Source: Candidatus Latescibacterota bacterium
GTDB taxonomy: Bacteria; Latescibacterota; UBA2968; GCA-2709665
DNA: 64,000 nucleotides
Direction of reading: 5' to 3'
NCBI GenBank assembly: GCA_963662665.2
Contig: CAXXJS010000019.1
Location: 23,450-87,449 of the forward strand
Shown here: piece after piece, positions 46,848 through 61,053 of the stretch
Numbering within the stretch: the first letter of the stretch is position 1
Layout: the number at the start of each line of letters is the position of its first letter
Notes under the pieces: generated by a model
Databases searched by the model: none
What the model saw: only the letters and a program-made list of their open reading frames with translations
What the model was told of the DNA's origin: nothing
Program-made: the position numbers and the translations under genes

Positions 46848-46878
46848 CTGCCGGCGCAAGGATTTCGGAGAAACTCAA

Positions 46879-48705: not shown

Positions 48706-49497
48706 ATGCGCCGGACGATAGGACGATCTGCCGTATTGTCGATGTTGTTGGGCGCGGTGGGTTGCAGCGCCTCGCTGATGGACCTGTCAGAGCGCGGAGA
48801 CGCCAAGGGCGTTCAGAGGGCCCTGGATCGCGGCAGCGACGTGAATGCCAGGACGCTCCAGGGACACAGCCCGTTGACGCTGGCCGCCAGAGATGGTCGC
48901 CTGGATATTGTCCTCGCCCTGATTGAGGCCGGTGCCGATCTCCACGCCGTGGCCTGGACCGTTGGCGCCCATACAGTCGAAACGCAGGATCGACATGGCG
49001 GATACGCATTCATCAGGGAACGGTACGTCAACCCCGACAGTTCCGGGCCCCAGTCCAGGTTTATGGCGCAGCGTACACGCGGTTCGGCGAGTTGGGTGCT
49101 GAGAGACGGGAAAACAGCGTTGATGCTTGCCGCCGAGGGCGGTCACCTGGACGTGGTCGAGGCGCTCGTTGAAAGCGGCGCCGACCTGTTCGCGACAAGC
49201 GGCGGTGAGATCGTGACATCCGGAATGCCTTCGTATAAGGACTATGACGGGATTATCTCGGGTTACACCGGTGCGCAACCGGAAGATATCGGTCGCGAAG
49301 AGGACAAACATGGCGGCAGTTACTACGGACCGGAGCACGGCCGCGTTCTGTATTACGATACCGTCGATTCAGATGGTCCTTCCTGGTCGATCGGCGGCAG
49401 CACGGCGCTGGATTTTGCGTACCGGAACGGACATAAGGAAATCATCGATTTTCTCCTGGAATCGGGCGCGGGGATGACGCCGTCGAGTTCAAAATAG
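48706..49497 (+). CDS. ankyrin-repeat lipoprotein with long loop insertions
   Basis: Lipobox AVGC; GHSPLTLAA, GKTALMLAA, GSTALDFA, GADL motifs. Confidence 0.85.
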   Translation: MRRTIGRSAVLSMLLGAVGCSASLMDLSERGDAKGVQRALDRGSDVNARTLQGHSPLTLAARDGRLDIVLALIEAGADLHAVAWTVGAHTVETQDRHGGYAFIRERYVNPDSSGPQSRFMAQRTRGSASWVLRDGKTALMLAAEGGHLDVVEALVESGADLFATSGGEIVTSGMPSYKDYDGIISGYTGAQPEDIGREEDKHGGSYYGPEHGRVLYYDTVDSDGPSWSIGGSTALDFAYRNGHKEIIDFLLESGAGMTPSSSK

Positions 49498-49677
49498 GAC
49501 CGTGGAGCGGTCTTCGCCGTTAGTGATCCGGTCTCGTAAAATCGTAAATTTGCGAGACCGTTTTCTATCATGTGCCAGTTGGTTCCCCGGAGTTCGGGAA
49601 TGACAGCGACGAATTGTGGAATTGGTCATTTTGGGCCGGCCGACGAGTGAAGGGTGGGAAAAACGTCAAACGATTCC

Positions 49678-49725
49678 CCCTGAGCCTGTCGAAGGGCAGG
49701 GAAGCGCGCATTCGTCAAGCTCGGC
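49678..49725. repeat. degenerate REP-like palindrome
   Basis: CCCTGAGCCTGTCGAAGGG...TTCGTCAAGCTCGG imperfect inverted repeat. Confidence 0.5.
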
Positions 49726-49809
49726 ACACACTACGAAGTAAATCGAAATGAATCGTCGGAAGAATGGCGACGGATTTCCGGGTGGACACCCGGTCGGTGG
49801 AACGTACTG

Positions 49810-50472
49810 ATGAAATTTACTTTACTGTTGTTGTCGTTATACCTGGGCGCATCACCTGCTTTTGCGCAGGATTCGGACGTGGATTCCACACGGAGTGAGC
49901 GACCGACATTTTCGATGACGCCTACGTGAACGGGCTGACCCGGCGAAGGCGCACCGCTCCGGGGGAGTGGCATCCATACGAAATTCACGTTTTCCGGACG
50001 TTTTGTAGATACAAGCCTGGACCGACCTCAGTGGCGGTTCACGGCCAATTACATGCTTCATCATCGCCTGCAGGTCGGGGTTGAGCTCAATCCGAAAGCA
50101 AAAGAGGCAGGACCTCTTGCGACGCTTTTCTTATATACCGAGACCGAAACACGGCCTGCGCTTTTTCTGGGCACGAGTTCGGATCGAATCGGTTCTCCGG
50201 TGGGCGAACAATCTTACTTCGCGACAATCAGCAAATATATCCCCCGTCTGCGGACTTCGCTGTACGCCAGTTTGAATTATTCGGAATGGGATGACAGGCT
50301 CAACGTTCCCTTCGGCGTGGGAGTGGAATTGGGCGGAGGGTTTTCATTTCGACCCATGTACGATGGCGACAGGGGGCACCTGATGCTGAATTATTACGCC
50401 GCCCGATACGGGGCGAGCCTGATGTACGTATGGCTTGAAACCATGGGTATTTCGTTTTCCGCCGGATTCTGA
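49810..50472 (+). CDS. candidate di-selenoprotein (U40-T-G-U43), secreted beta-barrel-like outer-membrane protein, 220 aa
   Basis: ATG 49810 with signal peptide MKFTLLLLSLYLGASPAFA; in-frame TGA at 49927 and 49936; frame continuous with ORF 50053..50472, ending GISFSAGF; hairpin at 49954-49970. Confidence 0.78.
49954..49970 (+). promoter_or_regulatory. candidate bacterial SECIS element
   Basis: CCGCTCC-GGG-GGAGTGG stem-loop; loop starts 22 and 31 nt after the two TGAs. Confidence 0.65.
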
Positions 50473-50484
50473 CCTGGAGGTTCA

Positions 50485-51168
50485 ATGCATTTTCGCGGTC
50501 TGCTGTTCCTGATCGCTCTGGCCGTTCCGGTTGCACCTTCAGCCGAGGGCCGGATTCCCGATAAGGCGCTTTGCAGTGTCTGCGCCTTGAAAGGCGGCGA
50601 GACAGAGTTGGAAAAGGTCAGAGCCCACTCTGAACATGACGGCAAGGCGTACTTCTTTTGTTCCAGGAACTGCAAAAAGGAATTCGACGCGGATCCGATT
50701 GCTTTTTTGCCCCCCGTATTCCCGCGCCCCGCCCCGGCCTTCGTCGTTGAAACGCTGGAGGGCGCGGACCGGACGCTGGCGGACCTGAAAGGCAAGGTCG
50801 CACTTCTTGATTTCTGGGCGACGTGGTGCGAACCCTGTCTTGAGACGATGCCCCGATTGCAGAAGACCTACGCCGCTTTTACAGACAGGGGTTTCGAGGT
50901 GTGGGGGGTGTCCATCGATGAGGATAAGGATCGGATCCGAAAGATCCGGAAGATGGCGGACAAGCTGGGTATTGCGTATCCCGTCTTCGTCGACGCGAAA
51001 CAGACACCGGCCTGGTACCGGTTCAGGGTGAAGGCGATTCCCGCAATGTACCTTCTCAATAGAGACGGTCAGATCGTGGCACAATGGACGGGAAAGATAG
51101 ATTACGAGGAAGTGGAGGAGGAAATTCTGAGACTCCTGGAGAAAAGGGTCAGAGTCAAAGGGCAATGA
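50485..51168 (+). CDS. secreted YHS/TRASH domain + TlpA thioredoxin fusion
   Basis: Signal peptide; CSVC, GKAYFFCSRNC...F..DP; DFWATWCEPC, AIP. Confidence 0.88.
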   Translation: MHFRGLLFLIALAVPVAPSAEGRIPDKALCSVCALKGGETELEKVRAHSEHDGKAYFFCSRNCKKEFDADPIAFLPPVFPRPAPAFVVETLEGADRTLADLKGKVALLDFWATWCEPCLETMPRLQKTYAAFTDRGFEVWGVSIDEDKDRIRKIRKMADKLGIAYPVFVDAKQTPAWYRFRVKAIPAMYLLNRDGQIVAQWTGKIDYEEVEEEILRLLEKRVRVKGQ

Positions 51169-51273
51169 ACGAATTAGTCCAGATGTATTCCGGCAGTATC
51201 GTGGCGGTGGAGATCCCGTTGGACTGTTATCGCACGCCTTCACCCCGGGTTACGGAATCGACTGGAAGCAATC

Positions 51274-52863
51274 ATGGACCTGGTCATTTCCGGCGGAACG
51301 GTAGTTGACGGTACCGGCGCCGTTCCCGTCTCCGGGGACGTGGCCGTTGCGGACGGGCGGATCGTCGGCGTCGGCCGGATTCCTCGACCCGACGGCGTGC
51401 CGTGCGTGGATGCGGCCGGTTGCTACGTGACGCCGGGATTCATCGATATCCACAGTCATTCGGATTTTACCCTGATGGTCGATCCCCGGGCGGTGAGTTC
51501 GATCATGCAGGGTGTGACGCTGGAGGTGGTGGGCAACTGCGGGCACGGAAGCGCACCCATTGGCGATCCGTCGCGCACCCGTTCGAATATATACGGTTGC
51601 AGGTCAGGGTATGAGATCGGCTGGCGCACCGTTGGCGAGTATCTGGATCGCCTGGAGGGTCGGCGACCGGCCGTAAACGTCATGACGCTGGTGCCCAACG
51701 GAAATCTGAGACTGGCAGCATGCGAAGCGTTGGACCGTCCGTCCACGCCGGACGAACTGGAGAAGATGAAACGCCTGCTGGCTCAGGGGATGGAGGAAGG
51801 GGCCGTGGGGTATTCCACGGGCCTGGAATACGGTCCGGAAAGGGACTGCCCCGAAGAAGAGATTTCAGATCTATGCGCGATCGCGACGGAATACGGCGGG
51901 GTCTACACGACCCATACCCGCAACCGAATGGGGCAGGCGGAGGAAGCCGTCGCTGAGGCGATCCGTACCGCCGAAACGGCCGATGCGCCCCTGCAGATTT
52001 CGCACATTTCGTCCGTTGCCAGGCTGTCGGACGACGGCGGATGGGCGGTCGATCAGGCGCTCGAACAGGTCGACCGGGCGCGCAGCAACGGGCTGGACGT
52101 GCAGTTCGACATGCACACGCGGCTTTTCGGGACAACCAACCTGAGCGCGGCTCTGCCGCTGTGGGTGCTGGAGGGAATTTCGAAGGTGATTGCGGGTCGC
52201 CTGCGCGATCCATCCGTTCGTCGCGAAATGGAAAGCTGCGAAAGTATCGTTACCTCTCTGGCGCAGGGAGACTGGGAGCGGATCGTCATCTTCCACTCGC
52301 CCGCGCAACCGGAGCTTGCGGGAAAGAGTATTGCCGAACTTGCCGCCGCCGGAACCGGCAGTGCCAGTGACGCCATCTGCGACATTTTATATGCGGCATC
52401 CGACCGGTTGCACGAAGTTATGGTGATCGCGTTCAGCTATCGCGAGGCAGACGTCCGACCGGCGTTCGAACACCCGTTCTGTATGGTCGGCTCCGATGCC
52501 ACCGCGCTCTCAACGGATGGGCCCTTGAAGGACGACACGTTTCACGGCGCCTATACGTGGGCATCCTGGTTCTTCCGGCATTTCGTCCGGGACCGGAAAG
52601 TGTTCAGCCCGCAGGAAGCCGTGCGCAGGCTGACGATGCTGCCGGCTTCCCGGCTGGGGTTGTCCGACCGGGGCGTGATCCGCAATGGGGCGCATGCGGA
52701 CCTGGCCATTTTCGATCCAAACGTATTCTCCGAACGGGGAACCACGTACGAGCCCAACCGGACGGCCGCGGGGATGCGCCACGTGCTGGTAAACGGCGGC
52801 ATCGCGATGACGGACGGCGTCCTTACGGGCCAGCGGTACGGCCGGGTGTTGCGGCGCGCTTGA
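51274..52863 (+). CDS. N-acyl-D-amino-acid deacylase family amidohydrolase
   Basis: PGFIDIHSHSD, GNCG, STGLEY, ISH, GSD, ADL.IFDP. Confidence 0.9.
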   Translation: MDLVISGGTVVDGTGAVPVSGDVAVADGRIVGVGRIPRPDGVPCVDAAGCYVTPGFIDIHSHSDFTLMVDPRAVSSIMQGVTLEVVGNCGHGSAPIGDPSRTRSNIYGCRSGYEIGWRTVGEYLDRLEGRRPAVNVMTLVPNGNLRLAACEALDRPSTPDELEKMKRLLAQGMEEGAVGYSTGLEYGPERDCPEEEISDLCAIATEYGGVYTTHTRNRMGQAEEAVAEAIRTAETADAPLQISHISSVARLSDDGGWAVDQALEQVDRARSNGLDVQFDMHTRLFGTTNLSAALPLWVLEGISKVIAGRLRDPSVRREMESCESIVTSLAQGDWERIVIFHSPAQPELAGKSIAELAAAGTGSASDAICDILYAASDRLHEVMVIAFSYREADVRPAFEHPFCMVGSDATALSTDGPLKDDTFHGAYTWASWFFRHFVRDRKVFSPQEAVRRLTMLPASRLGLSDRGVIRNGAHADLAIFDPNVFSERGTTYEPNRTAAGMRHVLVNGGIAMTDGVLTGQRYGRVLRRA

Positions 52864-52911
52864 TGGACTTGACGTCTCTTCACAGTTGTTGATCGGGAAG
52901 TGAGGAGTTCT

Positions 52912-53913
52912 ATGGTTCAAAACTCGATTTCAGGACGGATCCGCTGGTCGTTCAGCGATGGAAACCCGGTGATCGCTCCGGGCCAGTTGCACGCGGATAT
53001 GGATAGCCGGCGCGCCGGCGCCGCCCACGTCGTGCAGCTTGGAGACCGGTACCGGATGTACTATTGGGGAACCGGGGCGAACGGGTTTCACCGCATTCTG
53101 ATTGCCGAGAGCCCTGTGGACGAACCCAACGACTGGAAGCCCGTGGGCGTCGCGCTCAGCCGGCAGCGGGACACGGCTTATAACGACGAGGGGCCGGGTT
53201 TCCCGTTCGTGGTTCCGAGAGACGACGGCCCCTGGCTCCTGTATTTCTGTGGTTGGGGGAAACCCAGAGAGGACGGCAAGCTTCCCAATACCACGGGCGT
53301 GGCAGTCAGCGTTGACGGCGGGTACCGGTTCCGCTATCCGAATCGGGAACCGATTCTGCCGTTGGACCGGGACTGGGACCGGGAGGGAACCGGAAGCGTA
53401 TGTGTCTTGCGGGTCGATGGCCGTTACCATATGTATTATACGTCTATAGGGGCCTATTTCAACCGCCCCGAAGGTGCTGTCACGGGCCACGGAAATGTAA
53501 TTCCCCGCATCGGTGTTGCCTATGCCGCATCGCCGGACGGGACGGTGTGGACAAAGCCGGTGAATGGTCTGATGGTCGGACCGAGGGGCTTCGACACCGA
53601 ACCCTACGAGTACATCTGTTCAAAGCCCTTCGTCCTGCGGGAACCCGGCGGCTACCGGATGTGGGTGAATACGTTCGGCACCGCCTATCGGATGAGGAGT
53701 CTGGTCGGACCGGACGGCATGGACTGGCGCTGGTGCGACAGCGGGCCTGACGGGGAGTTCGGTGTTGGCGCGAAGGGCGCGTTCGACGACAGGCAGCGGT
53801 GTTACGGGAGTATCGTCAAATACGGCGAGGAATACCGGTGTTGGTACACGGGAAACGGTTTCGGCGCAACGGGGATGGGTTACGCCGTAGGGAAGATTGA
53901 GGGTGAGCGATGA
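52912..53913 (+). CDS. five-bladed beta-propeller glycosidase-like protein
   Basis: Repeated Y.MYY/W blades and Asp-box-like S.DG..W motifs. Confidence 0.7.
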   Translation: MVQNSISGRIRWSFSDGNPVIAPGQLHADMDSRRAGAAHVVQLGDRYRMYYWGTGANGFHRILIAESPVDEPNDWKPVGVALSRQRDTAYNDEGPGFPFVVPRDDGPWLLYFCGWGKPREDGKLPNTTGVAVSVDGGYRFRYPNREPILPLDRDWDREGTGSVCVLRVDGRYHMYYTSIGAYFNRPEGAVTGHGNVIPRIGVAYAASPDGTVWTKPVNGLMVGPRGFDTEPYEYICSKPFVLREPGGYRMWVNTFGTAYRMRSLVGPDGMDWRWCDSGPDGEFGVGAKGAFDDRQRCYGSIVKYGEEYRCWYTGNGFGATGMGYAVGKIEGER

Positions 53914-54009
53914 TCGCGGATCGTCCAATGGTGATTCAGCCGACGCATTTCATCGCAGGAATCGTCGTTGGCGTTCTATCTTCAGTGAGGGTGTTCGGGA
54001 GGCAGGTTC

Positions 54010-54732
54010 GTGGATCTTGACGAGTCGAAATTGCAGCATTACGAGCAAGAAGGATATACAACGGTTGAAGGGTTGATTTCGACCCGGGAAGCGGTCGCGG
54101 CGCGGAAGCGCCTTCTGGAACTACTGGAGGGTGAGCACGACTGGCCGGACCTTCACTTTCAGGTCCTGGACCCCGCGAAGTTCCACAACAGCAGGGGTGG
54201 ATTCGTTCCCATCGGCGTCCAAAGACCCGCCAGACAGGAGGCCGTCTTCCGGGAGATTGCGGACCACGTCAATTTGCAGGAGGCGATGTCCCGGCTTCTG
54301 GGCGGTCCGGTGAAGCGATTTACGGACCAGGCCCTGATCAAGAACCGGGCAATCGACGGGCAGTCGTTCTATCACCAGGATTCCTATTACTGGAAGATCG
54401 AGCCGGGTCGGGGGTGCAACGCCTGGATCGCACTGGATGAAGTGGGGGTGGACGCCAGCGCACTGGGTATTCTGCCGGGAACCCACAGGGATTGGACACT
54501 GAAAACCCACGAGCGTTATTACGATGAGCCCAATTATTACGCCGCGCGGACGGGCGAAGCATTTACCCGGTGGCGGATCCCGACGGATGGACTGGACCTG
54601 TCCCGTGAAGTGGTGCTGCCAATGCAGCCCGGCGACGCGGCGTTTTTCTCGAATTACACGTGGCATCGTTCGGAGGTAAACCGTTCGGGCGAACACAAGA
54701 CGGCCTACGCGATCGCGTATCAGCTGCGATAG
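54010..54732 (+). CDS. phytanoyl-CoA dioxygenase (PhyH) family Fe/2OG enzyme
   Basis: YEQEGY, HQD.YYW, WIALD, LPGTH, WHRS..N.S. Confidence 0.9.
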   Translation: MDLDESKLQHYEQEGYTTVEGLISTREAVAARKRLLELLEGEHDWPDLHFQVLDPAKFHNSRGGFVPIGVQRPARQEAVFREIADHVNLQEAMSRLLGGPVKRFTDQALIKNRAIDGQSFYHQDSYYWKIEPGRGCNAWIALDEVGVDASALGILPGTHRDWTLKTHERYYDEPNYYAARTGEAFTRWRIPTDGLDLSREVVLPMQPGDAAFFSNYTWHRSEVNRSGEHKTAYAIAYQLR

Positions 54733-54807
54733 AACCCGAAACCGGCGGCGATACGAGCGGCTCACCGGCGCCCGCGGTGCGTCATTGATTTCTGAGAGAG
54801 GGTCCGG

Positions 54808-56265
54808 ATGGTTCGAAGAACGGAACGCGCGCCGACCTCCCGCGTACGCTTCGGCTTTGCGCGCGTGGACATAACGCCGCCCGTGGGGATCTATCACCGC
54901 ATGTGGGGTGCGGCCAGGCACGACAGGGCAACGGGCGTTCATCGCCCGATACTGGGCGACGTAATGGTTTTCGGGTCGGCGGAGGCACCGGGGGAGATTC
55001 TCCTGGTTCGGGCGCATCTGGACCTGGTCGGCCTGGTTGCACAACAGTATGCGGCGCTTGTCGAGGCGCTCGGCGATGCCGCGGGGGTCGGTCCGGATCG
55101 GGTGGACGTGGCGTTTTCACACACCCATGCGTCCGGATGGTACGCACCGGATCGTTTCGGCATGCCCGGTGGCGAGCTGATCGAGCCGTTTCTGAAGGAC
55201 GTGGAGAATAAGGTGGCGGAGGCTTGCGGGGAGGCGATTTCGGATGTGCGGGAGGTGCTGATTACCTATGCCTCCGGTCACTGCGGAATGGCGGCAGACC
55301 GGGACTGCCGGGATGAGGCATTCGATGGATACGTCTGCGGGTACAATCCGGAAGGCAACGGCGACGATACCCTGCTGGTGGGACGTCTGAGTGAAGGAGA
55401 AGGCAGGACCGTGGCGACGGTGGTGAATTACGCGTGCCACCCGACCACACTTGCTTGGGAAAATACCCTGATCAGTCCGGATTACGTGGGTGCGATGCGG
55501 GGAGAAGTCGAGCGGGTGACCGGGGCGCCCTGCACGTTCTCGCTGGCGCCCTGCGGGGATTTAGGTCCGAAAGACGGTTTCGTGGGAAGTCTCGACGTCG
55601 CAGAAAAGAACGGACGCCAGCTTGGGTTTGCAGCGCTTTCCGTTCTGATGTCGATGGGACCGCCGGGCACGGATTTCGAATACCGGGGTCCCGTAGTTTC
55701 GGGCGCCACGATTGGCACGTGGGCGCACGCGGCATTTGGACGAGGTCGTTTGTGCGAGGTATCCGTTTTCGCCGGCGGCGTGTATTCCGTGGACCTGCCG
55801 ATGAAAAAACGGCAGGATCCGGAATCGCTCCAGGATGAGGTGGCGAGGTGGTCGGAAGCCGAACGGGCGGCCGATGCAACCGGAGACCCTGCGGCGGCTC
55901 GATCCTGCGGCGCGAGGGCGGAGCGGGCTAGGCGATGGCTCGCGCGGATCGCGAACCTGCCGCACGGCGATACATACCCCTATCGTTTCTCCGTATACCG
56001 TATGGGTGATGCAATATGGGTGACCTGCGGCGGGGAACCCTACAGCGATCTTCAGGTGGAGTTGCGCCGGCGATTTCCCAGGTTCGCGATTCTGGTTTCT
56101 CCTCTGGCGGGCAATGTACAGGTCGCTTACCTGTTGCGGAAAGACGCGTACGGCAAGGGACTCTACCAGGAGGAGCCGTCGAGTCTTGCACCCGGCTGTC
56201 TGGAGATCCTGACCGGTGCTATCGCTGAGCGAATCGAAGAGATCGCAGCTGAAAAAACGTGTTAG
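54808..56265 (+). CDS. neutral/alkaline ceramidase-like amidohydrolase
   Basis: DITPP, SHTHA, NYACHPT, ISPDY.G, GEPY. Confidence 0.75.
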   Translation: MVRRTERAPTSRVRFGFARVDITPPVGIYHRMWGAARHDRATGVHRPILGDVMVFGSAEAPGEILLVRAHLDLVGLVAQQYAALVEALGDAAGVGPDRVDVAFSHTHASGWYAPDRFGMPGGELIEPFLKDVENKVAEACGEAISDVREVLITYASGHCGMAADRDCRDEAFDGYVCGYNPEGNGDDTLLVGRLSEGEGRTVATVVNYACHPTTLAWENTLISPDYVGAMRGEVERVTGAPCTFSLAPCGDLGPKDGFVGSLDVAEKNGRQLGFAALSVLMSMGPPGTDFEYRGPVVSGATIGTWAHAAFGRGRLCEVSVFAGGVYSVDLPMKKRQDPESLQDEVARWSEAERAADATGDPAAARSCGARAERARRWLARIANLPHGDTYPYRFSVYRMGDAIWVTCGGEPYSDLQVELRRRFPRFAILVSPLAGNVQVAYLLRKDAYGKGLYQEEPSSLAPGCLEILTGAIAERIEEIAAEKTC

Positions 56266-56345
56266 CAGTCCGTTGAAAAAGTCGCTCTGCAGTAGTTCGG
56301 CCACAAGGGCCGGACGCAGCCTGGATGGACTTTTTCAACGGGCTG
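56266..56345. mobile_element. MITE copy 3 (80 bp, internally shortened, inverted orientation)
   Basis: CAGTCCGTTGAAAAAGTC...GACTTTTTCAACGGGCTG flanked by exact TTAG repeats. Confidence 0.85.
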
Positions 56346-56363
56346 TTAGACGGAGGAACGAAA

Positions 56364-57248
56364 ATGGCCGAACTCGTGTATTGCCCGGCTAACGACACGT
56401 ATCAATTCGAGACGGAGGCGATGACCGGTGAAATTCGCGCGTCGGGAGACTACCACGGGGTGTGGACGCTTACGGACAAGGTGAGTGGCCGGCAGGTGAT
56501 CCATCCGAAATATTCGGCATTGAACCTGTTCCGGTTGTTCGCGGTTCACCAGGGACTGGATCAACCGCGCCTGATGGACCGGACAGTCGAAGCGCGGGGC
56601 AACGCCATTGAGATATATTGGCCCGTTACTGAAACACATCAAGGTGAGCTGACCGCCCGTTACGAGATTTTCGAGCCAAATCAAGTCGACCTGACGGTGA
56701 CGGTGATGTGCGAAGGGACCTATTCAGGATATGAGCTTTTCCTCTCCAATTATTTCGACAAGACAATGCGGCCTCATATCTATCTCCACGGCAGCCGGTA
56801 CGGCCGGGCGAGCGCGGAACCCGAACGGATTGTGCCCATGGTGAACGACGTCTTTCGCGGGACCGTCATCGTGTTTCCGCGGGACCCGCATGCCGCGAGA
56901 CGTTGCGTCGACGGACGGTGGAATCGCAGTGAGAGCAACTCGCCTACCGTGCAGATGTGCCCGGTTCGGTACTACGGCCATCCGTTCTCGTTCCTGACGG
57001 ATCCCGGGAATCGGTTGGGCGTTGTGTTGATGTCGACGGAAGCGGACTGTTATGCCATCAGTACGCGTTACCACGTGGCCGACGAAGCCGATCGCATGAC
57101 GGATTACAGTGCGTTTGATTTTTCTCTCTTCGGCGACGACCTGGTGCCCGGCAGCACGCGCACGGTACGCATGCGGCTGGTTTTGACCGAAGTAGATGAG
57201 GAAATGTCCCAGCCGCTGGCGCAATATCGTGCGTTTGCCGGCGATTGA
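56364..57248 (+). CDS. hypothetical protein
   Basis: GGAGG RBS before ATG 56364; long ORF, beta-rich composition, no family recognised. Confidence 0.65.
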   Translation: MAELVYCPANDTYQFETEAMTGEIRASGDYHGVWTLTDKVSGRQVIHPKYSALNLFRLFAVHQGLDQPRLMDRTVEARGNAIEIYWPVTETHQGELTARYEIFEPNQVDLTVTVMCEGTYSGYELFLSNYFDKTMRPHIYLHGSRYGRASAEPERIVPMVNDVFRGTVIVFPRDPHAARRCVDGRWNRSESNSPTVQMCPVRYYGHPFSFLTDPGNRLGVVLMSTEADCYAISTRYHVADEADRMTDYSAFDFSLFGDDLVPGSTRTVRMRLVLTEVDEEMSQPLAQYRAFAGD

Positions 57249-57488
57249 CGGCGGGATTCGCGGTTCGGCTCAAGATGAATTTAGCCGGATCACATCGGGT
57301 AAACCGTAGGCGCAACGGGCAGGCGCGAGGCATCGCCGACCATCGGTTTTGTACCTCGAATTGGCAGAAATCATCGCCCGATTCAATTTGAGGTTGAATC
57401 GGCGCCTTATTGTACCTATTTTTTGGTGACAAATGGCCCCTGGCGCTGGGCCGCATCTGCTCCACGTATAGTGATCGATTAAATACGG

Positions 57489-58685
57489 ATGATGAAAATC
57501 CTCGGACATGTACGGTTTCGGTACCTGTCGATGTTCGGCCTGTTCCTGGCTTTGGCTGCCTGCGGAAAGACGCCGCCCACAGTGGACGACGATCTTTACG
57601 AAGAGTACCCCGGGTTGCCCTACGGGATCATGATCACCATCGCCGGCACCGGAGATGCCGGCAGGAATGCGGCGGGATCGGGTCCACTCGATGCGGAACT
57701 GTATTTCCCCCAGGATATGGCCGTCGGTCCCGACGGTCGGACCTACATCCTGGACTGGAACAACAATCGGGTTGTCGTGATCGATAACGGAATCGTGCGT
57801 CCCCTGATCGGCAACGGCGAACCGGGCGAGGCGCTTGCTGGTTCAGCGCTGGAGGTAGGGGTCGATCATCCGTCCCATATTTCATTCGATCCGCAGGGAC
57901 GGCTGGTCCTGTCGGCCTGGCAGAATTCAAGGATCCTGAGGTACGACTTCACCACGCGCCGCGTCGAGCCCATTGCCGGCCGGGGCGATCGTGGGTTTGA
58001 AGGTGATGGCGGCCCTGCACTCGAGGCCTCGTTGAATCTGCCGAGTTCCACGGTCTTCGGTCCGTCCGGCCGCATGTATATCTCAGACCAGGGCAACCTC
58101 CGCATTCGCATGGTCGATCTGGATGGTATGATCACCACTGTTGCGGGTACCGGACGGGAGGGACTTGCCGGGGACGGCGGTCCTGCTATTCTGGCCGATC
58201 TCTATGCACCGACTGGTGGCGCGGCGCAGCCCGGCGGACGAATTGCCATGGATAGCCGCGGCAACCTTTATATCGCAGATACGTTCAACAATCGCATCCG
58301 CATGGTGGATACTTCGGGCAGGATCAGCACGGTTGCCGGCGGCGGAAGTATCGGACCCACTGCCGGAACCTATTCGGGAGATGGCGGCCCCGCAACCGAG
58401 GCCAATCTTTCGCGCCCCAGCGACGTGGTCGTCGATGCGGAGGGAAACCTGTATATAGCCGATACCGGTAACCACTGCATCCGCAAGGTGGATACGAAGG
58501 GGATAATTACCACCCTTGCCGGTCGGTGCGGTGAGCCGGGTTTCAAGGGTGACAGCGACCATCCCCGATGGGGGAAACTCCGGAGTCCCTATGGGGTCGC
58601 GCTGGATCAGGACGAGAATCTGTACATCGCCGATACATTCAACCACCGGATCCGCATGGTGTACAAACACATCGCCGAAAGATGA
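57489..58685 (+). CDS. NHL-repeat (teneurin-like) beta-propeller lipoprotein
   Basis: Lipobox LAAC; repeated GDGGPA..A.L..P and GNLYIADT.NHRIR. Confidence 0.9.
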   Translation: MMKILGHVRFRYLSMFGLFLALAACGKTPPTVDDDLYEEYPGLPYGIMITIAGTGDAGRNAAGSGPLDAELYFPQDMAVGPDGRTYILDWNNNRVVVIDNGIVRPLIGNGEPGEALAGSALEVGVDHPSHISFDPQGRLVLSAWQNSRILRYDFTTRRVEPIAGRGDRGFEGDGGPALEASLNLPSSTVFGPSGRMYISDQGNLRIRMVDLDGMITTVAGTGREGLAGDGGPAILADLYAPTGGAAQPGGRIAMDSRGNLYIADTFNNRIRMVDTSGRISTVAGGGSIGPTAGTYSGDGGPATEANLSRPSDVVVDAEGNLYIADTGNHCIRKVDTKGIITTLAGRCGEPGFKGDSDHPRWGKLRSPYGVALDQDENLYIADTFNHRIRMVYKHIAER

Positions 58686-58750
58686 TCTTTCAGCCGATAG
58701 ACGGGCGACTCCGAATTCGTGTATGGATACCGTTCCCTGGAGGAGTGGTT

Positions 58751-59254
58751 ATGGGCGTGATTAAACTGGCTCTGTTCACCGGGGTTGTGCTGGGGGCGGG
58801 CTTCATTGTGTGCTTCCGCGACGCGGGGGCCGCAAAGGTCGAGAAATCCAATCCGCTGCCCAGGGTGCAGGTTGTGACGCTGGAGGGAGATACGCTGAGT
58901 CTGGCCGAAGTCTGCGAAGGCAAGACGTCATTCATTTATCTGTGGGCTACCTGGTGCAAGACCTGCAAGAAAGATATGAAGCACGTTTTCAAGTTGAGGG
59001 AGAAATTCGGAGACAACGTGCAGGTCTTCGGAATCGCCTGGAAGAACAGCGCGGAGGAAATTCAGACCTATTTCGCAAACAGGAAGAAAGTCCTGCACAG
59101 TTACATCGACTCGGATGGCAGGGTGTTCGAGGCCTTCGAGACCCGGTTGACGCCCACGGTTGTAATTGTAAATGCCCGGGGCGAGGTCCTTTATTCGGGT
59201 TACGGCTCCTTTCGGAAATACAGAAAAATTCTGAACAAGGCATTGAAGGGATAG
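58751..59254 (+). CDS. TlpA-family thiol-disulfide oxidoreductase with N-terminal signal/anchor
   Basis: GGAGGAG RBS; WATWCKTC; TP cis-Pro motif. Confidence 0.85.
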   Translation: MGVIKLALFTGVVLGAGFIVCFRDAGAAKVEKSNPLPRVQVVTLEGDTLSLAEVCEGKTSFIYLWATWCKTCKKDMKHVFKLREKFGDNVQVFGIAWKNSAEEIQTYFANRKKVLHSYIDSDGRVFEAFETRLTPTVVIVNARGEVLYSGYGSFRKYRKILNKALKG

Positions 59255-59297
59255 TCTTCAGTTGAACATTGACTTCACCGTTTGAGGAGTGTGGACG

Positions 59298-60272
59298 ATG
59301 AGACGACTATTGGTGGTTCTCCCGCTGATCCTGTTCACTCACCTGTTTTTCGGAAACAGATCCGCCCTGGCGCAGCCCGGCGTAAGCTGACGCCGTCCCG
59401 TACTCCCGGGCGGGAGAATGCTTCAGGGAAGTCTGATTACCAAGGATCTCCTGGTTCTGAGCTTGAACTACGAGTACGAATATCTGGGCGATGCGATGTT
59501 CGGTACCGGCCCGATCCCCAACATCAACCAGGAAGTGACCAGCATATCAACGGTTTCGGTATTCGCGAGTTACGGGGTCACGGAATGGTTCGGCGCAGCC
59601 GTGGTGCTTCCGTTTCGATCCATAACCAACGACAAGATTCTTCTTCCCGGTCAGTACGACAACCAGTATCAGGGCGGTAAATATGTCCGTCATGCCGCCG
59701 GTCTCAGCGACGTCGTTCTGATGTTGAACATCGTGCCACCTCTGCCGGAGGCATTGCCCGGACTACTGTTTTCTGCAGGTGTCAAGCTCGCGAACGGGTC
59801 CACCCACGCGGTCGACGAATACGGCCAGCGTTTCGCCGACCTGCTGCAAGTGGGATCCGGCAGCGTGGACCCCATTTTCTCCGTCAGTCTGTCGCGCGCA
59901 TTCGATAACCTGTTCTTCTCCGGCATGCTGTTCACGCGGATCATCTCCCGTGAGAATGTCTACGGGTACAAATACGGGAACGAGGTTCAGGGCATCTTTT
60001 CGATGGATTATATGCACGGTGACGTATTTATCGCGGGGTTCAGCGTAAATCACGTTCACACGGCTCGCGATTATTTCCAATATGGTAAGATCGCCCGAAA
60101 ACGCGGTGGCACGTGGCTCTATCTGGCGCCGAAACTAGGCGTACGGGCAATGGAGAATCTGAGCCTTGAAGCCAGATTGCCTCTTCCCGTATACCAGAAC
60201 GTGAACGAAAGCCAGCTGACCTCCGATTACCAGTTCCACGTGGGCGCAACATATCATTTCTTCGCCAGATAA
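59298..60272 (+). CDS. candidate selenoprotein (U31), outer-membrane beta-barrel 'transporter' (MetA-pathway-like), 324 aa
   Basis: GAGGAG RBS, ATG 59298, signal peptide ending ALA-Q; single in-frame TGA at 59388; continuous with ORF 59418..60272 (GLSD, GVKLANG, QVGSGSVD, YKYG, LPVYQ); hairpin at 59403-59416. Confidence 0.78.
59403..59416 (+). promoter_or_regulatory. candidate bacterial SECIS element
   Basis: CTCCC-GGGC-GGGAG stem-loop; loop starts 17 nt after the TGA. Confidence 0.62.
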
Positions 60273-60321
60273 AGGGCGAAAATACACCGCATCGCGTGGT
60301 TTCGGTCGTGAGGGGGCTGCC

Positions 60322-61053
60322 GTGGCACCGAAAGAAGCCGAAAAGATGTGGGCGGAACTGGCGCCTTACTACGATGTTCTCTACCAGTGGAAAGACTACA
60401 GGTCCGAAGCCGCAAGGATTCATCAACTGATCCAATCGCATCGATTGTCATCGGGTAATGCCCTCCTGGATGTCGCATGCGGAACCGGAGAACATACCCG
60501 GTTTCTGCGCGAACACTATTGTGTAACGGGAATCGATCTCAATCCCGAAATGCTGAAAGTTGCCCGCAGAAAAATCCCCGGGATATCATTCCTTCGCCGC
60601 GACATGGCTTCTTTCGACCTGAAACGCCGCTTCGATGCCATTGTCTGCCTTTTCAGTTCGATTGCCTACGTGAGGACCTACCGGCATCTGAGGCGGACGA
60701 TCGCCTGTTTTGGCAAACATTTGAAACCGGGTGGCATTCTTGTCATAGAGCCCTTTTTCACAACCAGGACGTTTCTACCGGGATCGATCCAGGGCGGCAC
60801 CATGGAGGGAGAGGGCGTCAGAATCTCCAGGCACAGCGTGAGCAGACGTCGGGGAAATCTGGCTGTTCTCGAATTCCATTTTCTTCTATCCACGAAAAAG
60901 GGCGTGCGGTACTTCCGAGACACCCACGAATTGGCCTTGTTCGACTGCGAGCGACTTCTGAAGACTCTGGAGGATGAGGGACTCCGGCCGGAATTCGCCA
61001 AACATGGATTGATGCAAGATAGGGGACTCTATCTCGCGTTGAAAGACAATTGA
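60322..61053 (+). CDS. class I SAM-dependent methyltransferase (TylM1/DesVI-like)
   Basis: YD..Y..KDY, LLDVACGTG, FDAIVCLFSSI.Y, HLKPGG. Confidence 0.85.
   Translation: MAPKEAEKMWAELAPYYDVLYQWKDYRSEAARIHQLIQSHRLSSGNALLDVACGTGEHTRFLREHYCVTGIDLNPEMLKVARRKIPGISFLRRDMASFDLKRRFDAIVCLFSSIAYVRTYRHLRRTIACFGKHLKPGGILVIEPFFTTRTFLPGSIQGGTMEGEGVRISRHSVSRRRGNLAVLEFHFLLSTKKGVRYFRDTHELALFDCERLLKTLEDEGLRPEFAKHGLMQDRGLYLALKDN

What the first reader, a model, noticed from the sequence alone, without database searches (positions are those of the whole stretch)
48706..61053. Candidate new system: selenocysteine-tipped outer-membrane barrels paired with exported TlpA redoxins, present twice
Two loci about 9 kb apart share the same logic. 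Locus 1: ankyrin lipoprotein, UxxU barrel, YHS-TlpA (12 nt gap). Locus 2: NHL lipoprotein, TlpA, U barrel (43 nt gap), methyltransferase. Seen in sequence: in both barrels the TGA(s) sit in the short segment after the signal peptide, the proteins contain no Cys, and a similar hairpin follows. Inference: an N-terminal Sec plug binds or reduces a soft metal/metalloid or redox-gates the pore, and is recycled by the periplasmic CxxC partner. The YHS domain supports a metal link. Standard gene callers would truncate both genes.
Basis: partly seen in the sequence, partly recalled or inferred. Interest (0 to 1): 0.92.

Follow-up and report, generated by a model that had tools for sequence, protein, structure and literature searches.

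The report
Selenocysteine outer-membrane barrels with redoxin partners
Two unrelated outer-membrane channel proteins in this bacterium each carry selenocysteine on the short arm behind their export signal and sit beside an exported thiol reductase, which points to an undescribed envelope system, probably for handling a metal, that ordinary gene finders cut in half.

Summary
B1 (49810-50472) has in-frame TGAs at codons 40 and 43. B2 (59298-60272) has one at codon 31. Both follow a signal peptide, and neither protein has a Cys.

Both are genuine selenoprotein genes:
- The genome has selA, selB, tRNA-Sec and a Sec-type selD.
- TGA-TGA is kept in 78 of 80 B1 loci from many phyla; the other two lack the N-terminus.
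- All 34 B2-family matches that cover the site keep the TGA.
- A hairpin with compensatory changes follows each TGA.
- Distant homologues have Cys at the same columns.

AlphaFold models give 12-stranded outer-membrane barrels. B2 resembles COG4313/PF13557 channels, whose N-terminal segment plugs the lumen. B1 and B2 are not homologous.

B1's only conserved neighbour is a YHS-TlpA fusion, directly downstream in 66 of 77 loci. In a Cys sister clade the YHS domains are fused to the barrel instead, and a plain TlpA-like gene follows in 3 of 4 loci.

The best reading is a periplasm-facing selenol site, serviced by the reductase, that handles a soft metal. That function is inferred, not shown.

Neither family is in a 2026 inventory of 119 selenoprotein families or in NCBIfam. 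This scan found B1 before on other DNA (e1-5219701). B2 appears new to it.

The parts
48706..49497 (+). Ankyrin-repeat lipoprotein upstream of B1. It is context only and is not conserved outside the genus.
   Evidence: Pfam Ank 77.6 bits. tblastn hits occur only in same-genus loci. It is not among the conserved neighbour clusters.
49810..50472 (+). B1: a 220-aa selenoprotein made of a signal peptide (1-19), a flexible arm carrying TPT-U40-T-G-U43-PGEGAPLRGSG, and a roughly 12-stranded outer-membrane barrel (59-220).
   Evidence: Translation. TGA-TGA is kept in 14 of 14 full-length relatives and in 78 of 80 loci. AlphaFold barrel at pLDDT about 90. Foldseek matches to FapF, KdgM, NanC and OEP21.
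49927..49938 (+). The two Sec codons of B1: TGA 49927-49929 and TGA 49936-49938.
   Evidence: Cys aligns to both positions in the sister clade. Contigs of 4 runs show no variant letters here.
49954..49970 (+). SECIS-like hairpin of B1: a 7-bp stem with a GGG loop. The loop starts 31 nt after UGA1 and 22 nt after UGA2.
   Evidence: 98.5% of 532 cells are paired and 16 cells have changes on both sides. 0 of 500 shuffles reach the percentage paired, the double-change cell count or the covariation score. Slid controls reach 30-69%. RNAalifold predicts the same stem.
50485..51168 (+). Exported YHS-TlpA fusion. It has a signal peptide, a four-Cys YHS/TRASH-like domain (C30, C33, C59, C63) and a ResA/TlpA-type redoxin with WC115EPC118.
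   Evidence: Pfam AhpC-TSA 81.5, Redoxin 65.9 and YHS 32.4 bits, all above their cut-offs. PDB best match ResA 4nmu at E 1.8e-22, with TlpA 1jfu and 4txo also matched. Invariant Cys residues in 61 sequences. Directly downstream of B1 in 66 of 77 loci.
57489..58685 (+). NHL-repeat beta-propeller lipoprotein (lipobox LAAC) upstream of TlpA2 and B2.
   Evidence: Pfam NHL 100 bits and TEN_NHL 111.8 bits. Conserved with TlpA2 and B2 in 16 of 16 orthologous loci, including another genus at 63% identity.
58751..59254 (+). TlpA2: a membrane-anchored TlpA/ResA-like redoxin with WATWCKTC. The start may instead be 58682.
   Evidence: Pfam Redoxin 54.9 and AhpC-TSA 48 bits. GGAGGAG lies 5 nt before the ATG at 58751; ATG 58682 overlaps the NHL stop. 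Present in 16 of 16 B2 orthologue loci.
59298..60272 (+). B2: a 324-aa selenoprotein made of a signal peptide (1-25), an arm QPGVS-U31-RRPVLPGG, and a COG4313/PF13557-like 12-stranded barrel.
   Evidence: Translation. One TGA in 33 of 33 close matches covering the site and in a 30%-identical relative. AlphaFold model. Foldseek FapF at E 1.9e-12 and COG4313 channel 4rl8 at E 2.3e-10, TM 0.62/0.73. A 52%-identical relative hits PF13557 above its cut-off.
59388..59390 (+). The Sec codon of B2.
   Evidence: It aligns with the first Cys of a CxxxxC motif in distant homologues.
59403..59416 (+). SECIS-like hairpin of B2: a 5-bp stem with a GGGC loop that starts 17 nt after UGA. The spacing is the same as the hairpin behind the TGA of this genome's own selD.
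   Evidence: 91.9% of cells are paired and 7 cells have changes on both sides; 0 of 500 shuffles reach the percentage paired, that cell count or the covariation score. selD control.
60322..61053 (+). Class-I SAM methyltransferase downstream of B2. It is context and is conserved only within the genus.
   Evidence: Pfam Methyltransf_25 66.3 bits. Present in 15 of 15 same-genus loci but not in the other-genus locus L042.

Best explanation
B1 and B2 are two unrelated, previously uncatalogued selenoprotein families. Both are 12-stranded outer-membrane beta-barrels, and in both the only chalcogen residues are selenocysteines on the short segment between the signal-peptide cleavage site and the first strand.

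Each UGA is decoded as Sec with the help of a hairpin 17-31 nt downstream.

Both ends of such barrels normally lie in the periplasm, and in the solved COG4313 channel this very segment folds into the lumen. The Sec arm is therefore expected at the periplasmic mouth or plug of the channel. There it would be a client of the co-encoded exported TlpA/ResA-type reductase, which keeps the selenols reduced in the oxidising periplasm.

For B1 the unit has three parts: the U/C-x-G-U/C arm, the barrel, and YHS metal-binding domain(s) plus TlpA. Most likely the diselenolate takes up or hands over a soft metal ion, with copper the first guess and iron or others not excluded, at the entrance of the channel. 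B2 would use a single selenol on its plug in an analogous but independently evolved arrangement.

What is shown: Sec coding, fold class, gene linkage and domain shuffling.
What is inferred: topology of the arm, reduction by TlpA, the identity of the ligand and the direction of transport.
For: Sec decoding:
- selB (371.7 bits), selA (560.3 bits) and tRNA-Sec (73.6 bits) lie together on contig C16. selD has an in-frame TGA.
- TGA is the commonest ordinary stop, ending 970 of 1817 long frames, so the codon is not generally reassigned.
- B1: 14 of 14 full-length relatives have 2 TGAs. So do 78 of 80 loci found through the pattern S[LV]NYSEWD, which cannot bias the result.
- B2: 33 of 33 close matches have 1 TGA, as does one 30%-identical relative with AVAURRPTLPGE.
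- The Sec motif is the most conserved part of each protein.
- Hairpins with compensatory changes at synonymous sites follow the TGAs. B2's loop sits exactly where the loop of the hairpin behind the own selD TGA sits.
- In a 26-32%-identical sister clade (PTCAGCAGEAR), Cys aligns to both B1 Sec positions. Cys also aligns to B2's Sec in CxxxxC homologues.
- Contigs of 4 runs show no variant at the TGAs.

Fold. The COG4313 N-terminal segment occludes the lumen from the periplasmic side (PMC4493636, passages read).

Linkage:
- The YHS-TlpA cluster is the only conserved neighbour of B1, present in 71 of 77 loci.
- It lies directly downstream, with FWATWCxPC, in 66 of 77 loci.
- In the Cys clade, 4 representatives carry YHS domains above Pfam's cut-off fused to the barrel, and a fifth is just under it.
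- In 3 of 4 flanked metagenome loci a plain redoxin gene follows immediately.
- B2: TlpA2 is adjacent in 16 of 16 orthologues. In a distant lineage the order is barrel, lipoprotein, then two TlpA-like genes.

Metal link:
- Four invariant Cys in the YHS domain plus the WCxPC motif.
- YHS, TRASH and ATPase metal-binding-domain hits.
- A published precedent: in the C. jejuni Fet iron-uptake cluster, a YHS/CXXC protein co-occurs with periplasmic thioredoxins (PMC10783030, passages read).
Against: - No experiment, and no complex model, links TlpA to the arm.
- The AlphaFold confidence for both arms is below 50, so their position (periplasm, lumen or surface) is not modelled.
- 7 of the B1 loci with at least 4 kb of downstream sequence have no redoxin nearby. 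One Cys-clade locus of 4 has none either.
- B2's paralogue clade (15 of 15 genomes) has a beta-propeller lipoprotein but no TlpA within 2 kb.
- Two B2 homologues carry Ser at the Sec position, so the selenol is not indispensable for every family member.
- No copper, iron or mercury gene is a conserved neighbour. The metal is a guess from domain families.
- Three database relatives of B1 show W at both Sec positions, and one shows C..W. These are probably calls under genetic code 4 (TGA read as Trp) on short contigs, but their DNA could not be read.
- The redoxins score far below NCBIfam's TlpA equivalog cut-off (63.8 vs 230 bits).
Confidence: 0.6

Rival explanations
1. A redox relay or redox gate rather than a metal site. 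The diselenide/diselenol of B1, or the selenol of B2's plug, would cycle between oxidised and reduced states. That would either open and close the channel or pass reducing equivalents from TlpA towards the outer leaflet or surface. The YHS domain would be merely structural (for example zinc-bound).
For: - The UxxU spacing matches redox CxxC motifs.
- The dedicated reductase partner is conserved.
- The arm lies on the segment that plugs COG4313 channels.
- Most catalogued selenoproteins are redox proteins (PMC13188914, section 7 read).
Against: - The YHS domain hops between barrel and reductase and keeps four invariant Cys. That fits a ligand-binding role better than a passive one.
- No electron acceptor is encoded nearby.
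- B2 has a single Sec and no resolving Cys.
Confidence: 0.2
2. Chalcogen or metalloid traffic. The selenols would capture selenium, sulfur, tellurium or arsenic species as Se-Se or Se-S adducts for uptake or export through the barrel. For B2 this might act together with the neighbouring methyltransferase, with methylated hydrophobic species leaving through a COG4313-type channel.
For: - COG4313 channels are implicated in transport of hydrophobic molecules (PMC4493636, abstract and passages).
- A SAM methyltransferase follows B2.
- A Geobacter porin-like protein is linked to selenite and tellurite reduction (PMC5877670, title and abstract seen in the listing only).
Against: - The methyltransferase is generic: its best specific hits are far below their cut-offs.
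- It is conserved only within the genus.
- B1 has no such neighbour.
- YHS domains are linked to metals, not chalcogens.
Confidence: 0.08
3. The barrels are real selenoproteins but the redoxins are not their partners. On this view the TlpA-like genes serve general envelope tasks such as cytochrome c or copper-centre maturation and are neighbours by chance or shared regulation.
For: - TlpA/ResA/CcmG-type proteins have many clients; the PDB matches are ResA, DsbE, CcmG and TlpA.
- 7 B1 loci and the whole B2 paralogue clade lack a nearby redoxin.
Against: - The adjacency survives from 96% down to about 50% barrel identity across many phyla, with gaps mostly of 1-60 nt.
- It persists in the Cys clade even though the YHS domain has moved to the barrel.
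- It recurs with a different gene order for B2.
Confidence: 0.08
4. The TGAs are not Sec codons. They would be stops of short upstream ORFs, pseudogene lesions, sequencing errors, or TGA read as Trp or Gly.
For: - Four database relatives show W at Sec positions.
- Single-sequence hairpin energies are not better than shuffles.
Against: - The barrels would lack a signal peptide if translation began after the TGA.
- Frame, motif and TGAs are kept in 78 of 80 and in 34 of 34 covering loci.
- The Sec machinery is complete.
- TGA is the main stop codon of the genome, and B1's own stop is TGA.
- Cys aligns at the same columns in homologues.
- The hairpins covary.
- Independent contigs keep the TGAs.
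Confidence: 0.02

Closest known systems
COG4313 / PF13557 (Phenol_MetA_deg) outer-membrane channels, e.g. Pput2725 of Pseudomonas putida (PDB 4rl8)
   Same: - The B2 model superposes on 4rl8 (E 2.3e-10, TM 0.62/0.73).
- A 52%-identical relative of B2 passes the Pfam cut-off (28.6 vs 22 bits).
- Both are 12-stranded barrels with a short N-terminal segment before strand 1. In Pput2725 that segment fills the lumen from the periplasmic side.
   Different: - B2 itself gave no Pfam hit at E 0.1 or better.
- It has an invariant Sec on the N-terminal segment and a TlpA-like neighbour.
- Ordinary family members in the same phylum start AQGPPINTE with neither Cys nor Sec.
- No redox or selenium feature was seen in the passages of the COG4313 paper that were read.
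TlpA with its clients ScoI and CoxB in Bradyrhizobium (a periplasmic reductase that prepares Cys pairs for copper binding). The biology is recalled from memory; the structures 1jfu and 4txo were matched here.
   Same: - An exported ResA/TlpA-type redoxin with WCxxC is encoded beside a protein that has a paired Cys/Sec motif.
- The logic is the same: a reductase keeps a metal-binding pair reduced.
   Different: - The client here is an arm on an outer-membrane barrel, not a membrane-anchored Sco or a cytochrome oxidase subunit.
- The pair is Sec-x-Gly-Sec.
- The reductase carries an extra YHS domain.
- The NCBIfam TlpA equivalog cut-off is not met (63.8 vs 230 bits).
Campylobacter jejuni fetMP-fetABCDEF iron-uptake cluster (FetA with YHS and CXXC domains; thioredoxin-like FetE and FetF), PMC10783030
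   Same: A periplasmic YHS domain, CXXC motifs and TlpA/DsbE-like membrane-associated thioredoxins occur together in one conserved metal-uptake cluster (passages read).
   Different: - FetA is an inner-membrane protein with eight predicted helices.
- There is no outer-membrane barrel and no Sec.
- Homology to B1 was neither tested nor expected.
Catalogued outer-membrane or UxxU selenoproteins: the GSU2204-family MtrB/PioB-type barrel (NF041027), the TonB-dependent receptor of FCYXU type (NF049945), the metal-binding protein NF041115 (UxxU), the Prx-like and FmdB UxxU proteins, and the UGC-type TlpA
   Same: They show that Sec does occur in outer-membrane barrels and in UxxU metal-binding motifs (Table 1 of PMC13188914, read).
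   Different: - B1 and B2 match none of the NCBIfam models at E 0.1 or better.
- The listed families are large barrels or soluble proteins.
- None is a small 12-stranded barrel with Sec on the N-terminal arm.
- PF13557 does not occur in the paper's text.
Small 12-stranded barrels FapF, KdgM, NanC and OEP21 (fold only)
   Same: The B1 model's best Foldseek matches are FapF 5o68 (E 2.9e-5) and KdgM 4fqe (target TM 0.62), followed by NanC and OEP21.
   Different: - There is no sequence relationship: 0 PDB hits at E 1 or better with the B1 profile.
- None of these proteins has a Cys or Sec arm or a redoxin partner.

Membership tests
Bacterial selenoprotein (SelB/SECIS-dependent UGA decoding) | In-frame TGA conserved among orthologues, with conserved coding sequence on both sides | tested here: met
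   B1: 14 of 14 and 78 of 80 loci. B2: 33 of 33 close matches plus 1 distant one.
Bacterial selenoprotein (SelB/SECIS-dependent UGA decoding) | A stem-loop shortly downstream of the UGA. The 16-37 nt window and the G-containing loop are recalled from the bSECISearch criteria, not from a call. | tested here: met
   B1: a 7-bp stem, 98.5% paired, 16 double-change cells. B2: a 5-bp stem, 91.9% paired, 7 double-change cells. B2's spacing equals that of the own selD hairpin. No Rfam model matched.
Bacterial selenoprotein (SelB/SECIS-dependent UGA decoding) | selA, selB, selC and selD present in the genome | tested here: met
   All four score above their curated cut-offs. selB is also found in all 15 B1-positive relatives.
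Bacterial selenoprotein (SelB/SECIS-dependent UGA decoding) | Homologues with Cys at the Sec position | tested here: met
   B1: the PTCAGCAGEAR sister clade has Cys at both columns. B2: the first Cys of CxxxxC aligns in P0159 and P0161, but two closer homologues have Ser.
Bacterial selenoprotein (SelB/SECIS-dependent UGA decoding) | Selenium demonstrated in the protein | not testable with these tools
   This needs 75Se labelling or mass spectrometry.
PF13557 / COG4313 channel (B2) | Match to the Pfam model above the gathering score | tested here: not met
   B2 has no hit at E 0.1 or better. The relatives P0145 (28.6 bits) and P0160 (34 bits) pass the 22-bit cut-off. B2 is therefore a divergent relative, not a scored member.
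PF13557 / COG4313 channel (B2) | A 12-stranded barrel with the N-terminal segment inside the lumen | tested here: inconclusive
   The barrel fold is matched. The arm has pLDDT below 50, so its place is unknown.
TlpA/ResA/DsbE-type extracytoplasmic thiol-disulfide reductase (both partners) | Thioredoxin fold with WCxxC and an export signal or anchor | tested here: met
   Pfam AhpC-TSA and Redoxin above their cut-offs. WCEPC and WCKTC are seen in the sequence. PDB best matches are ResA, TlpA and DsbE.
TlpA/ResA/DsbE-type extracytoplasmic thiol-disulfide reductase (both partners) | NCBIfam equivalog score for TlpA or ResA | tested here: not met
   ResA subfamily 101.2 vs 170 bits; TlpA 63.8 vs 230 bits. 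They are TlpA-like, not equivalogs.
YHS domain (PF04945) | Pfam match above the gathering score, with conserved Cys | tested here: met
   32.4 vs 30.3 bits. C30, C33, C59 and C63 are invariant in 61 sequences. Sister-clade fusions score 47-75 bits.
Known UxxU or outer-membrane selenoprotein families (NF041115, NF041027, NF049945, TIGR02605) | Match to the NCBIfam model | tested here: not met
   No NCBIfam family at E 0.1 or better for B1 or B2.

The most novel reading that the evidence does not exclude
These would be the first outer-membrane channels that use selenocysteine as a working part of the transport path.

B1 would carry an obligate diselenol arm and B2 a selenol plug. In either case the site would act as a redox-switched gate or a soft-metal selectivity filter at the periplasmic mouth. 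A dedicated periplasmic reductase would reset it.

The B1-type unit, with its YHS domains, would be a widespread and so far unrecognised route for metal passage across the outer membrane in many uncultured phyla.
Probability: 0.3. Interest if true: 0.88.

Novelty: new variant of a known kind. Interest (0 to 1): 0.8.

Why it matters
Selenoproteins are almost all soluble redox enzymes. Here Sec sits on the arm of small outer-membrane barrels.

- In B1, no Cys form was seen among the 78 complete loci, from many phyla, that belong to the close family. Cys appears only in a 26-32%-identical sister clade.
- Because gene callers truncate these genes, nearly all of the 120 listed of 861 database relatives of B1 lack the functional arm. 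The family is invisible in annotations and missing from selenoproteome counts.
- Three parts recur with domain shuffling: the barrel, the YHS domain(s) and a TlpA-like reductase. Together they define a compact, testable envelope module of unknown function.
- If the module moves or senses a metal, it would add a new route across the outer membrane and a new class of client for TlpA-type reductases.
- It would also give a case for asking why selenium is preferred over sulfur in the oxidising periplasm.
- B2 adds an independent second example in the same genome, which suggests a general design principle rather than a one-off.

Tried and rejected
- Single-sequence folding of the regions after the TGAs: no better than shuffles (z 0.22 to 0.60). 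Alone it is not informative.
- Pfam and NCBIfam on B1 and B2: no hits.
- Rfam on 49700-60400 at E 5 or better: only a chance snoRNA hit, no SECIS model.
- B1 against B2 by profile comparison: not related (probability 3.8%).
- PDB sequence search with the B1 profile: 0 hits at E 1 or better.
- Word-based search with the B1 arm alone (residues 28-75): no candidates. This does not show absence, because the profile search later found Cys forms.
It was not repeated, so binding stays untested.
- RNA evidence: no RNA holder was listed among 24 runs, so nothing can be said on expression.
- A Sec-containing TlpA in the 7 B1 loci that lack a redoxin: translating with TGA read through found none.
- The genes between the two loci (amidohydrolase, GH43-like, PhyH dioxygenase, two unknowns): unrelated.
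- Supplementary files of the cited papers were not seen. The review's Table 1 was read in the main text only.

Full report
**What is in the sequence**

B1 runs from ATG 49810 to the stop TGA at 50470-50472. It has in-frame TGAs at 49927 and 49936, which are codons 40 and 43. B2 runs from ATG 59298 to TAA at 60270-60272, with an in-frame TGA at 59388, codon 31.

Read through, both begin with a typical signal peptide (…SPAFA|QDSD and …RSALA|QPGVSU). Neither contains a single Cys. Under the standard code the callable ORFs start only at 50053 (139 aa) and 59418 (284 aa), so they would lack any export signal.

- an ankyrin lipoprotein, then B1, then after a 12-nt gap a YHS-redoxin fusion;
- an NHL lipoprotein, then a TlpA-like redoxin, then after a 43-nt gap B2, then a methyltransferase.

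The second redoxin most likely starts at 58751, behind a GGAGGAG.

**Are the TGAs selenocysteine codons?**

The genome holds selA, selB and tRNA-Sec side by side on contig C16, and a selD with an in-frame TGA. All four score above their curated cut-offs. TGA is at the same time the commonest ordinary stop, ending 970 of 1817 frames of at least 400 codons. B1 itself ends in TGA. A general reassignment of the codon is therefore excluded.

B1 in relatives:
- In 61 related genomes B1 was found in 15. All 14 full-length matches, at 56-96% identity, carry two TGAs. The fifteenth is a 58-residue fragment.
- A scan of one genome per species found 87 relatives. Of the 80 loci kept, 78 have TGA…TGA at the two positions: 75 by a strict motif and 3 with small variants. 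One locus is cut by a contig end and one has lost its 5' half.
- These loci were found through the C-terminal pattern S[LV]NYSEWD. The other search pattern required a Cys codon, and none of the 78 loci that contain the motif has one there. The sample is therefore not biased towards TGA.
- By their depositors' labels the records come from Latescibacterota, Gemmatimonadota, Acidobacteriota/Thermoanaerobaculia, Calditrichia, Eisenbacteria, Krumholzibacteriia, KSB1, Planctomycetota and others.
- The segment PT-U-x-G-U-PGEGAPLRGSG is the most conserved part of the protein.

B2 in relatives:
- All 33 close matches that cover the site carry one TGA. They comprise 16 orthologues, 15 members of a 51-54%-identical paralogue clade that includes a second copy in this genome, and 2 fragments.
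- A 30%-identical relative from another family of the phylum reads AVAURRPTLPGE.

Independent reads: contigs of four sequencing runs from four studies, two of which may be the source of the window, show no alternative letter at the B1 TGAs. Adjacent positions do differ.

**SECIS elements**

Energies of the single sequences are unremarkable, but comparison across relatives is clear.

In 76 distinct B1 sequences a 7-bp stem with a GGG or GUG loop (window 49954-49970) is paired in 98.5% of 532 cells.
- Two pairs at synonymous codon positions switch together: G-C 45, G-U 18 and A-U 10 for one pair; C-G 69 and U-A 5 for the other.
- That gives 16 cells with changes on both sides.
- 0 of 500 shuffles reach the observed pairing or covariation score.
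- Sliding the partner by 1-3 columns drops pairing to 30-69%.
- RNAalifold finds the same stem.

B2's hairpin (59403-59416, CUCCC-GGGC-GGGAG) is paired in 91.9% of cells, with 7 double-change cells.

This genome's own selD has a hairpin (…CAGUCC-GGUC-GGACUG) behind its TGA. Its loop starts at the same distance from the UGA, 17 nt after it, as the B2 loop does. The B1 loop starts 22 nt after the second UGA and 31 nt after the first. These distances fit the published search window for bacterial SECIS as I recall it (16-37 nt; recalled, not from a call). Rfam has no matching model.

**Cys homologues**

A profile of 78 B1 sequences was searched against 1.84 billion cluster representatives. It found 229 proteins at E 1e-3 or better, 143 at 1e-10 and 37 at 1e-30.

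The full-length distant hits form a sister clade, 26-32% identical, with the motif (L/M)(A/M)PTCAGCAGEA(R/K). Cys aligns to both Sec columns. This is the usual signature of a true selenoprotein family.

Within the close family no Cys form was seen. Three database proteins show W at both positions and one shows C..W. Two of them lie on contigs of 1.0-1.5 kb, and all are most simply gene calls under genetic code 4 (TGA read as Trp). Their DNA could not be read here.

For B2, distant PF13557-type homologues carry CxxxxC right after the signal peptide, and the first Cys aligns to the Sec. Two closer homologues (47-50% identity) have Ser there.

**What the proteins are**

AlphaFold models built on alignments of 78 and 41 sequences give confident all-beta barrels. 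For B1, residues 59-220 have pLDDT about 90 and form 12 main strands. For B2, long strands run from residue 51. The Sec arms are below pLDDT 50 in both models.

Foldseek against the PDB gives:
- for B1: FapF, a designed 10-stranded barrel, KdgM (target TM 0.62), NanC and OEP21;
- for B2: FapF (E 1.9e-12, TM 0.63-0.74) and the COG4313 channel 4rl8 (E 2.3e-10, TM 0.62/0.73).

A 52%-identical B2 relative passes the PF13557 cut-off, although B2 itself does not.

In the COG4313 crystal structure the roughly 14 residues before the first strand fold into the lumen and occlude it from the periplasmic side (PMC4493636, abstract and passages read). B2's Sec is the sixth residue of the predicted mature protein, on exactly this segment.

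B1 and B2 are not detectably homologous.

**The partners**

I clustered all ORFs from the 4-kb flanks of 77 B1 loci. Only one conserved neighbour emerged, the redoxin, in 71 of 77 loci. The other recurring clusters are overlapping shadow frames or lineage-specific genes.

A gene with FWATWCxPC lies directly downstream in 66 of 77 loci. In 60 of these a strict YHS Cys pattern lies in front of it. Of the 11 loci without it, 4 end within 260 nt of the barrel, and 3 of those show the start of the gene. The other 7 have at least 4 kb of sequence and no redoxin, not even a Sec-containing one.

In 61 partner sequences four Cys of the YHS domain (C-x2-C…C-x3-C) and the WCxPC motif are invariant. The redoxin domain is closest to ResA, TlpA, DsbE and CcmG structures.

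The sister Cys clade supplies a Rosetta-stone argument.
- Four representatives carry one or two YHS domains above Pfam's cut-off, fused in front of the PTCAGC arm and barrel. A fifth scores 29.7 against a cut-off of 30.3 bits.
- In 3 of 4 metagenome loci with flanks, a plain 160-aa FWATWCxxC redoxin follows within a few bases.

So the same three parts recur, namely the C/U-x-G-C/U arm on a barrel, the YHS domain(s) and a TlpA-like reductase. The YHS domain sits on either protein.

For B2:
- NHL lipoprotein, TlpA2 and barrel are kept together in 16 of 16 orthologous loci, including another genus.
- The distant relative has the order barrel, lipoprotein, then two TlpA-like genes.
- The paralogue clade instead has a beta-propeller lipoprotein downstream in 15 of 15 genomes and no redoxin within 2 kb.

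The ankyrin gene and the methyltransferase are confined to the genus. B1 and B2 lie 9-10 kb apart in all 7 genus genomes that have both. B1 also occurs in genera without B2. The genes between the two loci are unrelated.

**How it most likely works**

Shown:
- Sec coding;
- barrel fold class;
- tight and ancient linkage of barrel, YHS and redoxin.

Inferred from established knowledge:
- Both termini of even-stranded outer-membrane barrels lie in the periplasm, so the arm is within reach of periplasmic proteins.
- TlpA/ResA-type proteins are reductases that keep client Cys pairs reduced, for example for copper insertion (recalled).
- YHS/TRASH domains are presumed metal-binding modules of copper ATPases and related proteins (recalled; the ATPase-cat_bd and TRASH hits are).

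My best reading (confidence 0.6) is that the selenol arm is a periplasm-facing ligand or redox site at the mouth of the channel, reset by the partner reductase. For B1 it would cooperate with the YHS domain in handling a soft metal.

A published parallel is the C. jejuni Fet iron-uptake cluster. It combines a YHS/CXXC membrane protein with periplasmic thioredoxins (PMC10783030, passages read).

The rivals, each with its test, are given in the Rival explanations section:
- a pure redox gate or relay (0.2);
- chalcogen or metalloid traffic (0.08);
- neighbourhood without partnership (0.08);
- not Sec at all (0.02).

**Novelty**

A 2026 review lists 119 prokaryotic selenoprotein families. I read its Table 1 in the main text (PMC13188914, section 7, parts 1-2). 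It includes:
- an MtrB/PioB-type barrel;
- a TonB-dependent receptor;
- UxxU forms of Prx-like, metal-binding and FmdB proteins;
- a YHS selenoprotein;
- a UGC-type TlpA.

It does not include a small barrel with a U-x-G-U arm or a PF13557-type channel, and the terms PF13557, porin and Latescibacter do not occur in its text. NCBIfam release 20 has no model that matches B1 or B2.

Full-text searches found nothing describing these proteins. The term sets were:
- selenoprotein + UxxU;
- selenocysteine + Latescibacteria;
- selenoprotein + outer membrane + beta-barrel + selenocysteine;
- YHS domain + TlpA;
- YHS domain + outer membrane.

Supplements were not available.

This scan has met the B1 module before in another genome (note e1-5219701). 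Its reading, a two-Sec barrel with a metal-binding/thioredoxin fusion partner and copper suggested, agrees with what I derived independently here. A related note (e1-5040949) describes a different TlpA, outer-membrane channel and UxxU metal-binding operon. B2 gave no look-alike in the scan's index.

**Verdict**

The two genes are real, undescribed selenoprotein families. The barrel-redoxin partnership is strongly supported for B1 and moderately for B2. The physiological role is open but directly testable.

Noticed in passing
G000 contig C40, locus L014 around position 1528: The genome's selD carries an in-frame TGA (…TCGUAAKISP…). It is followed by a hairpin with a GGUC loop that starts 17 nt after the UGA. 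This was used here as an in-genome SECIS control.
   Followed up: partly
G000 contig C34, locus L027 1492-2463 (- strand) and 408-1481 (- strand): A second B2-type selenoprotein barrel (GGVSURRPVLPGG, about 53% identical to B2) lies in the same genome. A beta-propeller lipoprotein (weak Lactonase/SGL hits) follows it. The pair is kept in 15 of 15 genomes of the genus, without a TlpA nearby.
   Followed up: partly
Proteins P0134 and P0141 (database relatives of B2): Two full-length homologues (47-50% identity) have Ser where B2 has Sec (…GAMSSRRPALLGG, …DGMGSRHPVLPGG). These are natural Sec-to-Ser variants, which is unusual for a catalytic Sec.
   Followed up: no
Proteins P0011, P0062, P0262, P0170 (database relatives of B1): They show W at the Sec positions (W..W, or C..W in P0170). 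Two of them lie on contigs of 1.0-1.5 kb. They are probably gene calls under genetic code 4 (TGA read as Trp). Their DNA could not be inspected.
   Followed up: no
L072 (4001-4660) and L139 (4001-4342): Two B1 copies look decayed. L072 has a stop inside the signal peptide, RESS instead of RGSG, and a broken hairpin. L139 lacks the 5' half of the gene.
   Followed up: no
L170 3793-5939 (- strand), beside a Cys-clade YHS-barrel: An OmpR-type response regulator and a HAMP histidine kinase are divergently transcribed next to the YHS-barrel-redoxin pair. They might be the sensor of the system's signal.
   Followed up: no
window 49936-49984, as seen in sequencing runs X1, X3, X7, X9: Extra short contigs, some at higher depth than the main contig, match only this 49-nt stretch (second TGA to hairpin) with 6-7 differences. 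Their unmatched flanks read …CCCACCTGAAGCGCG. They look like B1 homologues of other organisms in the same samples, also with TGA…TGA.
   Followed up: partly
window 44751-48636: Upstream of the finding lie two long ORFs that look like a hydantoinase/oxoprolinase A and B pair. This is judged by eye from the translations and was not searched.
   Followed up: no
Genus-level synteny: B1 and B2 lie 9-10 kb apart on the same contig in all 7 genomes of the genus that have both. Only 6 of the 14 other genus genomes, plus this one, have B1 at all. B1-YHS-TlpA therefore behaves as an accessory cassette.
   Followed up: partly
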